Source: an uncultured Alphaproteobacteria bacterium
GTDB taxonomy: Bacteria > Pseudomonadota > Alphaproteobacteria > Methylaequorales > Methylaequoraceae
Direction: 5' to 3'
Assembly: GCA_902526175.1 (NCBI GenBank)
Contig: CABZJY010000005.1
Span: forward strand, 11,711-75,710
DNA: 64,000 nt
Shown piece by piece: positions 898 to 3,408 of this stretch (position 1 is the first letter of the stretch; each line of letters opens with the position of its first letter). The position numbers and the translations under genes were made by a program. The notes below the pieces were generated by a model, which saw only the letters and a list, made by a program, of their open reading frames with translations, had not been told where the DNA came from and made no database searches.

Positions 898-3408
898 TTG
901 TTTTTTATTTTTTTTTTAATATTTTTAATTAGCAATATAGTTGTTAATCAACTCTATTCACAGGAAGAAATTCTTGTTGCACCTGACGTAAATGTTATTT
1001 CTGTGTCACCGGTTCAAGGTTCAGGTTTAGATATTGAAAGAGTACCTGGTAAAGTCCAAATTCTAAATAGAGAAAAGCTTGATAAAAAGAAGAACTTTTC
1101 AATCACTGAAACACTTAATAGAGAAGCAAGTGGGATTTCAATTTTTAATTTAAATAGCTCTCCAATGCAAAATGATATTAATTTTAGAGGTTATGTTGGT
1201 GGTCCACTCTTAGGTACAGCTCAATCAATAGCGGTTTACCAAAATGGTATGAGGGTAAATGAATCTTTTGGTGAGGTAGTCCAGTGGGACCTTGTTCCAG
1301 ATTTTGCAGTTAACAATATGCAAGTTTTTGCTGGAGGTGATCCTATATTCGGACAAAATGCTATTGGTGGTGCAGTAACAATGGAAATGAAAAATGGATT
1401 TAATTTTGAAGGTGGAAATTTAACCACTTCTGGAGGAATTTATGGTCGTACAAACGAAGTACTTGAGTACGGTAAGCAGTTTGATGATGTTGGAATATAT
1501 CTTGGAGCTAATTTTAATCATGACGCTGGTTGGAGAGACCACTCAGAATCATATCTAAATACTGTTTTCGGTGATGTGCGATATAGAACTAATGACAATA
1601 CAGAGTTATTTGTTAATTTTGGACAAGCTTACACTGATATAAGAGGTAATGGTGCTGTTCCACTCACTTTGATGGACTTAGAAGGTAGAGAAGCTGTGTA
1701 TACTTACCCTGATAATACTCATAACAAAAATTATTATGTAAATTTTGGAGGTAATCATTTTGTTAATGATAATTTATCTTTCCAAGGTAACATTTACTAT
1801 CGCCATATGGAGAGAAGGAACTACAATGGTGACGAGTTTGAAGCAGGTGACTGTGGAAAAGGATATAATTTTGATAGAGGTACTGCTGATGGAATTTTAT
1901 GTTCGGAATTAGAGGTTACAGGAGGATCTGACGAAACTTATCTTGATTTGGCTGGAAATACAATTAATTACACAGCATTAGGTTTATCCCTTGAAGATGA
2001 TGAAAATGAAGTAGAAAGTATTGGTGCTATTAACAGGTCTAATACTAAGCAAAATCAAATGGGATTAAACTTTCAATCAACTTATGATTATAACTATTTG
2101 AACAAAAGCAACACGCTTATTACAGGTTTAACCTATGAATTTTCACACAACAGTTTTGCCTCCTCTACAGAATTAGGTATTATTCAAGGTGATAGAGGCG
2201 TGCAAGGAACAGGAGTTCTTTTAAGCCAAGATTCAGAAGGTGAAAATATTTTTATTACAAACCTTGAAGCCACAACACATAATGTAGCTATCTATGGTTC
2301 GAATACTATAGATCTTGATAATGTGACATCATTAAATCTGTCTGGAAGATGGAACTGGGCGTCCTTAAAAATGGATGATCAATATTCAACCGCACTTGAG
2401 GGACACCACTTCTTTAACAAATTTAATCCTGGCGTTGGAATAACAAGAAAATTTGGAGATATAGGTGAAATATTTAAAAATACTTCTGCTTATGCAACGT
2501 ATAAAGAGTCTAGCCGTACTCCTTCTGTCGCCGAATTAGGTTGTGCAGATCCTGATCAACCATGTAGATTACCTAATTCCTTTCAAGCAGATCCACCATT
2601 AGACCAGGTAAAAAATAGAAGTTTTGAAATTGGTGCTCGTGGTTTTACGAAGGCGTATAAACTTTTTGATATGGATCACAACATCAAATGGGATGCAACA
2701 GCATTCGCTGGTCGTAATTACAACGATATCATCTTTATTGGTGGTAACAGGGTTGGAACTGGCTATTTTAGAAATGTTGGAAACACTCAAAGGATGGGTG
2801 CAGAGTTTGCTTTAAACGGAAAACTTGGTGAAAAATGGACATGGTATAGTAATTATTCTTATGTTAGAGCATCATTTGAAACCCATCAAAAAATAGCAAG
2901 TGCTGGGCACTCTGAAAACCCATTTTCATGTTCAGGTCCAGAGGAATATGGAGCCAATGCAACTGGTGATACAAACGCAACAAATGACCAATCTTCTTGT
3001 GAATCTAATGAAGCTTATCAAATACAAGTTGGTCCAGGAGATGCTATTCCTGGAATATCTCCACATATAGGTAGAGTGGGACTAGGATACACACCATATA
3101 AAAACCTAAATTTCTTTTTAGATGCCGAATATAATTCTCAACAATTTTACAGAGGAGACGAAAACAATGCTGAAGGCAGACAGGTTCCAGGCTATTTTCT
3201 ACTAAACGCATCTGCAGAATATACAATTACTAGGTCAAATGGTATGAATTCAGTATTTTTTATTGAAGGAAGAAATCTTTTTAATGAGAATTATGAAACA
3301 GGTGGAATCTTAGCGGAAAATGAAGTTGATGGTACAGGGGGAAGTGGTACCTTCGTTACTCCAGGACAGCCAACAACAATATTTGCAGGGGTACATGTTC
3401 GCTGGTAA
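898..3408 (+). CDS. TonB-dependent outer-membrane receptor, candidate lanthanide-uptake (LutH/LanA-like) type
   Basis: Signal peptide, plug domain (INFRG...NAIGGAV), barrel ending in aromatic W; [23 protein letters not shown] motif; TTG start with GGAG 5 nt upstream. The lanthanide role is inference. Confidence 0.9.
   Translation: [836 protein letters not shown]

What the first reader, a model, noticed from the sequence alone, without database searches (positions are those of the whole stretch)
898..3408. Stand-alone TonB receptor that looks like the missing LutH/LanA lanthanide importer
The lut-like operon at 42.5-47.4 kb has no outer-membrane receptor. This 836-aa receptor 39 kb away carries [23 protein letters not shown], a motif I associate with receptors next to xox/PQQ clusters in methylotrophs. 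A streamlined genome keeping such a receptor suggests dedicated scavenging of trace seawater lanthanides. Family membership is recalled, not computed.
Basis: partly seen in the sequence, partly recalled or inferred. Interest (0 to 1): 0.68.

Follow-up and report, generated by a model that had tools for sequence, protein, structure and literature searches.

The report
Unlinked LutH-type lanthanide outer-membrane receptor
This gene most likely encodes the outer-membrane gate that brings rare-earth metals into a tiny ocean methanol-eating bacterium; it is a genuine but expected relative of the LutH receptor of soil methylotrophs, and a 2025 paper's supplementary table already labels it that way.

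Summary
Window 898-3408 (+) encodes an 836-aa TonB-dependent receptor (plug plus barrel) that carries the quoted motif. The lutABEFCG operon 39 kb away has no receptor of its own.

The organism belongs to the TMED127/Methylaequorales order. The receptor is a computed member of the LutH family:
- It is 29% identical over its full length (E 2e-109) to the experimentally implicated Methylosinus LutH-like receptor.
- It is the reciprocal best hit of the receptor inside canonical Methylobacterium lutABCEFG-receptor-lanM clusters.
- In trees it sits inside a well-supported family, bracketed by members that lie next to lut, lanM, xoxF or pqq genes.
- The family co-occurs with lutA across 151 alphaproteobacterial genera (9 of 11; p = 5e-8).

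It is not related to LanA beyond the plug. It is not a PqqU, BtuB or siderophore-family member by curated models.

It is conserved in 9 of 9 high-quality genomes of the order. In the Sargasso Sea it is transcribed at about the level of the lut ABC genes. Function is inferred, not shown, and the ligand form is unknown.

Glass et al. 2025 (Table S5) already label the orthologue "lutH", without discussing it. The result is solid but expected. Interest is low to moderate.

The parts
841..868 (+). Promoter-like site TTTACA-16-TATACT, 30 nt upstream of the start codon, in the 74-bp gap shared with the divergent TerB-domain gene
   Evidence: Best match (10 of 12) of the consensus scan. The number of sites in the region is no higher than in shuffles, so this is weak evidence. 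Relatives carry TTGACA-type sites at the same place.
898..3408 (+). lutH-type TonB-dependent receptor gene, 836 aa, TTG start preceded by GGAG
   Evidence: ORF. Pfam Plug plus barrel. AlphaFold2 model with pLDDT 84.9 and pTM 0.84, plug-in-barrel fold. 29% identity and E 2e-109 to Methylosinus LutH-like.
898..963 (+). Hydrophobic N-terminal signal-peptide-like segment (residues 1 to about 22)
   Evidence: Read from the translation. Predicted as a helix at 2-18, followed by a disordered linker. This is an inference.
982..1005 (+). Candidate TonB box, PDVNVISV (residues 29-36)
   Evidence: Aligns with the family consensus LPxxxVIxxTPV. It lies in the low-confidence, extended stretch before the plug. 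This is an inference.
1033..1374 (+). Plug domain (residues 46-159)
   Evidence: PF07715, E 2.7e-12.
1714..3279 (+). Beta-barrel domain as matched by Pfam (residues 273-794). In the model the barrel strands run from about residue 172 to 835.
   Evidence: PF00593, E 6.6e-30. Strand pattern of the model.
1852..1902 (+). First conserved cysteine pair (C319...C335), in a long loop
   Evidence: Both cysteines are at least 90% conserved in the 51-sequence family alignment. They align with C...C of Methylosinus LutH-like.
2533..2601 (+). Family hallmark [23 protein letters not shown] (residues 546-568), with the second cysteine pair C549/C556
   Evidence: E546, C549, C556, D565, P566 and L568 are invariant in alignment A2. 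The mini-motif E[LN]xC[AS][DN]x4C occurs in 128 of 142 family rows and 0 of 6 outgroups.
42545..47434 (+). lutA-lutB-lutE-lutF plus two small ORFs (lutC and lutG of Glass et al.): the periplasm-to-cytoplasm part of the same inferred uptake route
   Evidence: TIGR03863, TIGR03866, TIGR03864 and TIGR03861 all above their cut-offs. Labelled lutABEFCG in PMC12542740.
53032..54906 (-). xoxF5, the lanthanide-dependent methanol dehydrogenase that uses the imported metal
   Evidence: TIGR03075, 673.8 bits against a cut-off of 480.

Best explanation
The gene encodes the LutH-family outer-membrane receptor of a TMED127/Methylaequorales methylotroph. It is encoded apart from the rest of the lut genes.

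Inferred mechanism, by analogy with Methylorubrum extorquens and Methylosinus trichosporium:
1. The receptor binds a light lanthanide, free or bound to a small ligand, at its extracellular face.
2. TonB with ExbB/ExbD supplies energy to displace the plug and pass the metal into the periplasm.
3. There the metal loads XoxF5 directly, or it is handed to LutA and the LutEF ABC importer.

Shown here: the fold, family membership, orthology, conservation, and co-occurrence with lutA/xoxF. Transcription in the sea comes from published data. Inferred: that the substrate is a lanthanide, the form of the ligand, and the coupling to TonB.
For: 1. Homology. The protein is 29% identical over 814 aligned residues (E 2e-109) to the Methylosinus OB3b LutH-like receptor that is required for the lanthanide switch. 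Both cysteine pairs and the hallmark motif are shared (sequence taken from PMC12482762 Table S2).

2. Reciprocal best hit. In the genomes of Methylobacterium thuringiense and Methylobacterium sp. BTF04, its only strong hit (E 1e-80 and 4e-83; next hit 1e-6) is the receptor inside lutABCEFG-receptor-lanM clusters. In its own genome it is the only family member. Glass et al. reached the same pairing with AM1 META1p1785.

3. Trees. In both FastTree (148 rows) and IQ-TREE with LG+C20 (60 rows) the family is monophyletic (support 99). PqqU, CirA, BtuB, LanA and the genome's two other receptors fall outside it. The TMED127 clade lies in a clade (support 98) with the core LutH clade. The next clade out contains a Thiohalorhabdus receptor that sits beside an ABC permease, an ABC ATPase and pqqEDCBA.

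4. Synteny in the family. 34 of 78 named homologues have lutA/B/E/F within 10 kb. Nine have xoxF within 10 kb, eight of them among those 34. Seven have a lanmodulin homologue beside them. The 37%-identical relative P0075 sits beside a MoxY_N-type sensor kinase.

5. Phyletic pattern. Among 151 alphaproteobacterial genomes, one per genus, 11 have the family. Nine of those have lutA (odds ratio 58, p = 5e-8), and nine have a methanol/ethanol-type PQQ dehydrogenase (p = 5e-5).

6. Conservation. The gene is present in 34 of 42 genomes of the order and in 9 of 9 high-quality ones. It is single copy, at 62-82% identity.

7. Transcription. The orthologue in SAG AG-892-F10 averages 320 TPM over 35 Sargasso Sea samples. 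That compares with lutA 159, lutE 164, lutF 179 and lutG 327.

8. Function of the reference protein. In M. extorquens AM1 the mxaF lutH double mutant does not grow on methanol plus La, La stays in the medium, and the lutH promoter is repressed 4-fold by La (PMC7391723).

9. TonB and MotA/ExbB-family genes exist in the genome and the order.
Against: - There is no experiment on any TMED127 protein.
- Identity to characterised LutH proteins is only 28-32%, and the TMED127 clade sits on a long stem branch (0.75 changes per site).
- The gene is 39 kb from lutA. That distance is conserved across the order along with everything else, so linkage carries no information here.
- Inside the order every good genome has the receptor, lutA and xoxF, so there is no contrast to exploit.
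- In the sea its transcript does not rise with xoxF5 (Spearman -0.33 after removing the xoxF5 share). Its correlations with the lut genes are weak and not significant.
- 10 of 19 lutA-bearing genomes lack the family, so the receptor is not obligatory for lanthanide use. One genome (G162) has the family but neither lutA nor the dehydrogenase.
- Family members on Burkholderiaceae plasmids have no lanthanide context.
- No residue known to bind lanthanide exists to check.
- A second receptor of the genome is of the FecA/LanA type and could also carry lanthanides.
Confidence: 0.7

Rival explanations
1. It is a generic iron-chelate (siderophore, haem or citrate) receptor. Its resemblance to LutH reflects only shared ancestry within a broad receptor subfamily whose members take different metals.
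For: Some public sources call distant homologues 'iron complex outer membrane receptor protein'. Other family members give weak, below-cut-off matches to the siderophore, hemin and B12 receptor models. Some family members have no lanthanide genes nearby, or none in the genome: Caballeronia and Methylocalor plasmids, P0074, G162. Iron is scarce in the open ocean, and the genome has only three receptors.
Against: P0001 itself matches no NCBIfam receptor model at E <= 0.01 and no solved structure by sequence at E <= 1. The family is separated by a long, well-supported branch from CirA, BtuB, PqqU, LanA and the two paralogues. It co-occurs strongly with lutA, and lut, lanM or xoxF genes lie near about half of the sampled homologues. 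The source names are automatic labels. The genome's FecA-like receptor on contig C1 is a better candidate for iron.
Confidence: 0.12
2. It imports pyrroloquinoline quinone (PQQ), or a PQQ-metal complex, as E. coli PqqU (YncD) imports PQQ.
For: PqqU is the closest solved relative, both by family profile (E 1.4e-38, C-terminal half) and by fold (Foldseek E 1.5e-38, TM 0.85 on the target). E. coli pqqU lies beside yncE, a beta-propeller of the kind LutB belongs to. The Thiohalorhabdus family member abuts pqqEDCBA.
Against: P0001 does not match the PqqU equivalog model at all, and other family members score 78 bits or so against a cut-off of 1200. PqqU falls outside the family in both trees, unresolved among the outgroups. 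Identity in the structural alignment is 15%, and all TonB-dependent receptors score nearly as well. The organism carries pqqBCDE, so it has no obvious need to import PQQ. Genetic data for LutH concern lanthanum, not PQQ.
Confidence: 0.07
3. The working lanthanide gate of this organism is the other, FecA/LanA-like receptor (genome contig C1, about 33-35 kb). The LutH-like protein then has a different or redundant role.
For: The C1 receptor aligns with Methylotuvimicrobium LanA over 731 residues (25% identity, E 8e-41) and groups with it in the trees. Many methanotrophs carry both LanA and LutH-like receptors (PMC12482762).
Against: The C1 receptor is about as close to E. coli FecA (E 3.8e-34) as to LanA. 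LanA itself is closest to FecA (E 9e-51). So this may be plain FecA-group similarity. The tree join is flagged as a meeting of long branches. Its neighbours show no lanthanide genes. Neither its distribution nor its orthology was tested here.
Confidence: 0.08

Closest known systems
LutH of Methylorubrum extorquens AM1/PA1 (META1p1785 / Mext_1853) and the LutH-like receptor CQW49_RS02145 of Methylosinus trichosporium OB3b
   Same: Same receptor family: full-length alignment, two shared cysteine pairs and the EL-C-x6-C...DPPL-QV hallmark. Reciprocal best hits. One copy per genome. Found together with lutABEFG, xoxF and pqq genes.
   Different: Only 28-32% identical, on a long branch. Encoded 39 kb from the lut operon rather than directly after lutG. 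No lanmodulin and no lanthanophore gene cluster in the organism (PMC12542740). A roughly 30-residue low-confidence loop insert with a third cysteine pair (residues 679-706). The habitat has picomolar rather than micromolar lanthanides.
PqqU (YncD) of Escherichia coli, the PQQ outer-membrane transporter (PDB 9c4o, 6v81)
   Same: Closest solved structure by profile and by fold. Its gene neighbour yncE is a beta-propeller of the LutB kind.
   Different: 15% identity in the structural alignment. Lies outside the family in the trees. The hallmark motif is absent. No hit to the curated PqqU model.
LanA of Methylotuvimicrobium buryatense 5GB1C
   Same: Also a TonB-dependent receptor needed for the lanthanide switch (PMC12482762).
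   Different: A different, FecA-like subfamily. Only the plug aligns with P0001 (20% identity, E 4e-6). LanA's best solved relative is FecA.
MluA (META1p4129), the methylolanthanin receptor of M. extorquens AM1
   Same: A TonB-dependent route for a lanthanide chelate (PMC11996626).
   Different: Reported there to cluster with the siderophore receptors PiuD, BauA, FhuA and FoxA, and to lie in a biosynthetic cluster. No such cluster is reported in TMED127.

Membership tests
LutH family of TonB-dependent receptors | Plug plus 22-strand barrel architecture of a TonB-dependent receptor | tested here: met
   Pfam PF07715 and PF00593. AlphaFold2 model with pTM 0.84; Foldseek matches to receptors at E 1e-38 to 1e-25.
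LutH family of TonB-dependent receptors | Full-length sequence similarity to a genetically validated LutH, and to receptors inside canonical lut clusters, with reciprocal best hits | tested here: met
   E 2e-109 to the OB3b LutH-like receptor. Sole strong hit in two Methylobacterium genomes is the lut-cluster receptor. Sole family member in its own genome. The AM1 protein itself was not in hand; the pairing with META1p1785 is taken from Glass et al. Table S5.
LutH family of TonB-dependent receptors | Placement inside the clade of lut- and lanM-linked receptors rather than with other characterised receptors | tested here: met
   Family support 99. TMED127 clade plus core LutH clade support 98. 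A lut/pqq-linked member sits in the next clade out. The outgroup set is small: six proteins.
LutH family of TonB-dependent receptors | Gene lies in or beside the lut cluster (lutA-G, lanM) | tested here: not met
   39 kb from lutA in the window. About 34-53 kb away throughout the order. The nearest sampled relatives outside the order (G105, G113, G148) are unlinked too. Linkage is typical of the family but is not what defines it.
LutH family of TonB-dependent receptors | Co-occurrence with the Lut ABC system and XoxF-type dehydrogenases | tested here: met
   9 of 11 family-positive genomes have lutA, against 10 of 140 family-negative ones. 9 of 11 have the dehydrogenase.
LutH family of TonB-dependent receptors | Needed for lanthanide entry or the lanthanide switch; expression repressed by lanthanide | not testable with these tools
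   Known for AM1, PA1 and OB3b only. In-sea transcription is shown, but no lanthanide response data exist.
LanA family | Full-length similarity to M. buryatense LanA (FecA-like receptor) | tested here: not met
   Only residues 29-306 align, at 20% identity, E 4e-6. LanA lies outside the family in the trees.
PqqU (NF041535) | Score above the curated equivalog cut-off (1200 bits) | tested here: not met
   No NCBIfam hit for P0001 at E <= 0.01. Other family members reach at best E 8.5e-37, far below the cut-off.
Siderophore, hemin and B12 receptor models (TIGR01783, TIGR01785/6, TIGR01779) | Score above the curated cut-offs | tested here: not met
   No hit for P0001. Other family members score well below the cut-offs.

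The most novel reading that the evidence does not exclude
LutH-family receptors, this one included, might take up lanthanides as a complex with PQQ or a PQQ-like small acid, so that the cofactor the cell already makes doubles as its 'lanthanophore'. This would explain four things. The family's nearest solved relative is the PQQ transporter PqqU. The PqqU-YncE pair in E. coli mirrors LutH-LutB. lut genes sit beside pqq genes. And TMED127 scavenges picomolar lanthanides with no dedicated chelator genes.
Probability: 0.08. Interest if true: 0.75.

Novelty: new member of a known kind. Interest (0 to 1): 0.3.

Why it matters
TMED127/Methylaequorales carry the most highly transcribed xoxF genes in oligotrophic surface seawater. 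The paper that described them listed only LutABEFCG and left the rest of lanthanide acquisition open.

Showing by computation that a single, order-wide conserved, transcribed receptor is the LutH orthologue fills in the outer-membrane step of that model. It also gives a concrete gene to test for how a cell captures picomolar rare earths without a known chelator. The same gene could be used as a marker for lanthanide uptake in marine metatranscriptomes.

It does not change how the LutH system is understood.

Tried and rejected
1. Joint decay of the receptor and lutA in genome G038. The order-wide searches showed stops in both genes while xoxF looked intact. But tblastn of all window proteins against 60 kb of that contig shows frameshifts or stops in about half of all genes. 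This is a noisy long-read assembly, not gene loss.

2. Co-occurrence inside the order. All nine high-quality genomes have the receptor, lutA and xoxF, so the pattern is uninformative.

3. Co-expression with xoxF5, from the published TPM table. There is no positive covariation. The raw correlations are distorted because xoxF5 makes up 16-57% of all transcripts, and after renormalising nothing is significant apart from a negative correlation with xoxG and a marginal one with xoxF5.

4. A shared operator upstream of the receptor and of lutA, compared in 11 TMED127 genomes. Only promoter-like blocks were found, and none was common to both genes.

5. Direct sequence search of solved structures and NCBIfam with the single protein. 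No hits. Only the family profile reached PqqU.

6. Strand-by-strand topology of the motif loop from the secondary-structure string. The parity of long loops could not be resolved without coordinates, so I make no claim about which side of the membrane the cysteine loop faces.

7. Whether Voutsinos et al. counted the Clade X receptor among their 41 'REE TBDTs'. This cannot be told from the text or the held supplements.

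Full report
**What is there.**
The window has one long ORF at 898..3408 on the + strand (836 aa, TTG start). A GGAG lies five bases upstream of the start. The best promoter-like site of the region, TTTACA-16-TATACT, is at 841-868. Pfam finds a Plug domain (residues 46-159) and a TonB-dependent receptor barrel (273-794). The quoted string [23 protein letters not shown] is at residues 546-568. An AlphaFold2 model built on 51 family sequences is confident (pLDDT 84.9, pTM 0.84) and is a plug-in-barrel receptor.

Window 42545-47434 encodes proteins above the curated cut-offs of TIGR03863 (binding protein), TIGR03866 (beta-propeller), TIGR03864 (ATPase) and TIGR03861 (permease), plus two small ORFs. 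These are followed by pqqBCDE, pseudoazurin and xoxJ-xoxG-xoxF. No outer-membrane receptor lies among them. The held genome (1.33 Mb, 83% complete) has only three plug-bearing receptors.

**Which organism, and what is already published.**
That paper describes the same "methylotrophy island" in the uncultured order TMED127/Methylaequorales. Its main text names LutABEFCG and never mentions TonB, LutH or a receptor. It says the full set of lanthanide acquisition genes needs more study.

Its Table S5 does carry the relevant line. It lists AG-892-F10.CDS.109 (2510 nt) on the same contig as lutA, 40 kb away. The gene name is given as "lutH", the product as "TonB-dependent receptor", and the M. extorquens AM1 homologue as META1p1785. 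The pairing came from an automatic two-proteome comparison. The gene order around it (DUF2805, a 149-aa divergent gene, the receptor) matches the window.

**Homology to validated receptors.**
Table S2 of PMC12482762 prints two reference sequences. One is the LutH-like receptor of Methylosinus trichosporium OB3b, which is required for the lanthanide switch. The other is LanA of Methylotuvimicrobium buryatense.

- Against the LutH-like protein, the window protein aligns end to end. It is 29% identical over 814 residues, E 2e-109. Both cysteine pairs and the hallmark are shared: ENGCSDRLHPCMIDNFLVSDPPLRQV against [26 protein letters not shown].
- Against LanA, only the plug aligns (20% identity, E 4e-6).

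LutH and LanA are therefore different families, and this protein is of the LutH kind.

**Does the family go with lanthanide genes?**
I scanned one genome per prokaryote species with a family alignment. This returned 80 named loci that are 40-46% identical to the OB3b protein. I then searched their 10-kb flanks with the window's own Lut, Xox and Pqq proteins and with lanmodulin. Of the 78 usable receptors:

- 34 have at least two of lutA/B/E/F nearby;
- 8 of those 34, plus one more, also have xoxF nearby;
- 7 have a lanmodulin homologue beside them.

Methylobacterium sp. BTF04 and M. thuringiense show the canonical order lutA-B-C-E-F-G, receptor, lanM.

More distant relatives show the same kind of context. 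The Bradyrhizobium STM 3809 and M. nodulans plasmid receptors have lanmodulin next door. The Thiohalorhabdus receptor is 35% identical and its motif is almost the same as the window's. It abuts a DUF3280 protein, an ABC-2 permease, an ABC ATPase and pqqEDCBA, with a formaldehyde-activating enzyme upstream. The 37%-identical P0075 sits beside a MoxY_N-type histidine kinase, a LuxR-type regulator and TonB/ExbD. The nearest outgroup to the TMED127 clade, P0074, stands alone.

The recalled link between the motif and xox/PQQ neighbourhoods is therefore real. However, the motif marks the whole family rather than a special subset. The mini-motif E[LN]xC[AS][DN]x4C occurs in 128 of 142 family rows and in none of six outgroups.

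**Orthology.**
Searched against whole genomes, the window protein has exactly one strong hit in each of six named genomes. In the two Methylobacterium genomes, that hit is the receptor inside the lut cluster (E 8e-80 and 4e-83), and the next receptor scores 1e-6. In its own genome it is the only family member. The two other receptors reach the reference LutH proteins only at E 1e-7 to 1e-13, over parts of their length.

In a FastTree of 148 receptors and an IQ-TREE (LG+C20 mixture) of 60, the results agree:

- The family is monophyletic (support 99). E. coli PqqU, CirA, BtuB, LanA and the genome's two other receptors fall outside it.
- The TMED127 sequences form one clade (support 100), joined by P0074, P0075, P0077 and P0103.
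- That group lies with the core LutH clade (support 100) inside a clade with support 98.
- The Thiohalorhabdus-type clade is the next out (support 92).

Members with lanthanide or PQQ gene context thus lie on both sides of the TMED127 clade. The outgroup set is small and the TMED127 stem is long (0.75 changes per site). These are the main weaknesses of the tree evidence.

**Phyletic pattern.**
Within the order the receptor is found in 34 of 42 genomes, xoxF in 30 and lutA in 35. All three are present in 9 of 9 high-quality genomes. The receptor is part of the core genome, but this gives no contrast. The 34-53 kb spacing from lutA/xoxF is conserved like the rest of the gene order, so it says nothing about function.

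Across the class the picture is informative. Among 151 genomes drawn one per genus, 11 carry the family at E <= 1e-40:

- 9 of the 11 have lutA, against 10 of the 140 others (odds ratio 58, one-sided Fisher p = 5e-8; p = 2e-6 without the window's own order);
- 9 of the 11 have a methanol/ethanol-family PQQ dehydrogenase (p = 5e-5);
- one genome (G162) has the receptor but neither gene;
- ten lutA genomes lack the receptor.

The family is tied to the lanthanide system but is not obligatory for it. The closest sampled relatives outside the order (G105, G113, G148; 38-43% identical; 2.1-2.3 Mb genomes) also keep the receptor apart from the lut operon.

**Expression.**
From Table S5 of Glass et al., the orthologue averages 320 TPM over 35 Sargasso Sea surface samples. 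That is similar to lutG (327) and above lutA, lutE, lutF and lutC (150-180). It is far below xoxF5 (351,000). It does not follow the xoxF5 daily rhythm. Spearman rho is -0.70 raw, and -0.33 after removing the xoxF5 share from the total. Its correlations with the lut and pqq genes are weak and lose significance after that correction. So the gene is expressed in the sea at the level of its presumed partners.

**How it most likely works.**
In M. extorquens AM1, loss of lutH together with mxaF stops growth on methanol plus lanthanum and leaves lanthanum in the medium. It also keeps the cell in the calcium-enzyme expression state. The lutH promoter is repressed four-fold by lanthanum (PMC7391723).

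By orthology, I infer the following route:

1. The TMED127 protein binds a light lanthanide species at the cell surface.
2. It passes the metal into the periplasm, using TonB. TonB is present on contig C3, and MotA/ExbB-family genes are present in the genome and the order.
3. In the periplasm XoxF5 is loaded, and LutA with LutEF can carry the metal further.

The chemical form of the substrate is open. No lanthanophore or lanmodulin genes were found in the order.

**Rivals.**
- *Generic iron receptor.* This fits the automatic names of some homologues and a few family members without lanthanide context. It is opposed by the tree, the synteny and the phyletic pattern. The FecA-like receptor on contig C1 is also a better iron candidate.
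- *PQQ importer.* The closest solved relative of the family is E. coli PqqU (YncD), both by profile (E 1.4e-38) and by fold (Foldseek E 1.5e-38). pqqU also lies beside yncE, a propeller of the LutB kind. Against this, P0001 does not touch the curated PqqU model, PqqU is outside the family in the trees, and the organism makes its own PQQ.
- *The contig-C1 receptor is the real gate.* It is 25% identical to LanA over 731 residues (E 8e-41). But both it and LanA are simply FecA-like. I could not decide whether it is a LanA orthologue. It remains a possible second lanthanide route.

**Verdict.**
The protein is a divergent, unlinked, single-copy member of a known receptor family, in an organism where such a receptor was expected. 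A published supplementary table already carries the label.

My confidence that it is the LutH orthologue is about 0.9. My confidence that it is the working lanthanide gate is about 0.7.

The value of the result is practical. It completes the uptake model for the ocean's most active lanthanide methylotroph, and it names one gene to test for lanthanide capture at picomolar levels.

Noticed in passing
Own genome, contig C1 about 33.1-35.4 kb (L005:8086-10368, +): A second TonB-dependent receptor (760 aa) aligns with the lanthanide receptor LanA of M. buryatense over 731 residues (25% identity, E 8e-41). It is equally FecA-like, and LanA itself is closest to FecA. The genome may therefore hold a LanA-type receptor as well as the LutH-type one, or this may simply be a ferric-citrate-type receptor.
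   Followed up: partly
Own genome, contig C3 about 124.0-126.7 kb (L004:7979-10659, +): The third receptor (671 aa) has weak BtuB/CirA-like plug matches. It is followed directly by the genome's TonB gene and preceded by a uroporphyrinogen-III methyltransferase (cobA/cysG-like) gene. This hints at a corrinoid or tetrapyrrole substrate.
   Followed up: no
Window 377-823 (-) and 97-384 (+): A TerB-domain protein (148 aa) is transcribed divergently from the receptor, across a 74-bp shared gap, with a DUF2805 gene behind it. The same trio is present in SAG AG-892-F10. There the TerB-like gene averages 467 TPM and has no AM1 homologue.
   Followed up: partly
L007, L009, L095, L096, L006 (distant family members): Family members that are not beside lut genes are repeatedly flanked by LuxR/NarL-type response regulators. 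They often also have HisKA_3 kinases nearby, one with a MoxY_N domain. This recalls the MxaY/MxaB and PedS2/PedR2 lanthanide-switch regulators. No such pair lies next to the TMED127 gene.
   Followed up: no
E. coli K-12 NC_000913.3 1520963-1524368 (L097): pqqU (yncD) and yncE are divergent neighbours. PqqU is the closest solved relative of the LutH family, and YncE is a beta-propeller of the same kind as LutB. The E. coli pair therefore mirrors LutH-LutB.
   Followed up: partly
Upstream of lutA in G012, G015, G019, G023, G026, G029, G032 (L112-L121): A nearly identical block, TAGATTAACATTTTCTAAAATTTATTTATAGTA, precedes lutA in seven TMED127 genomes. It is absent upstream of the window's own lutA (42474-42544). 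It is probably a promoter, and may include an operator.
   Followed up: no
G038 contig C24, 115-175 kb (L011-L013): This relative's 745-kb contig has frameshifts or in-frame stops in about half of its genes. The assembly is error-prone, so apparent pseudogenes in it should not be trusted.
   Followed up: yes
Window about 2932-3015 (residues 679-706 of the receptor): A roughly 30-residue loop insert, rich in N, T, D and S, carries an extra cysteine pair (FSCSG...SSCES). It has low model confidence. Core LutH proteins lack the insert, and the TMED127 relative P0036 has a shorter one without the cysteines.
   Followed up: no
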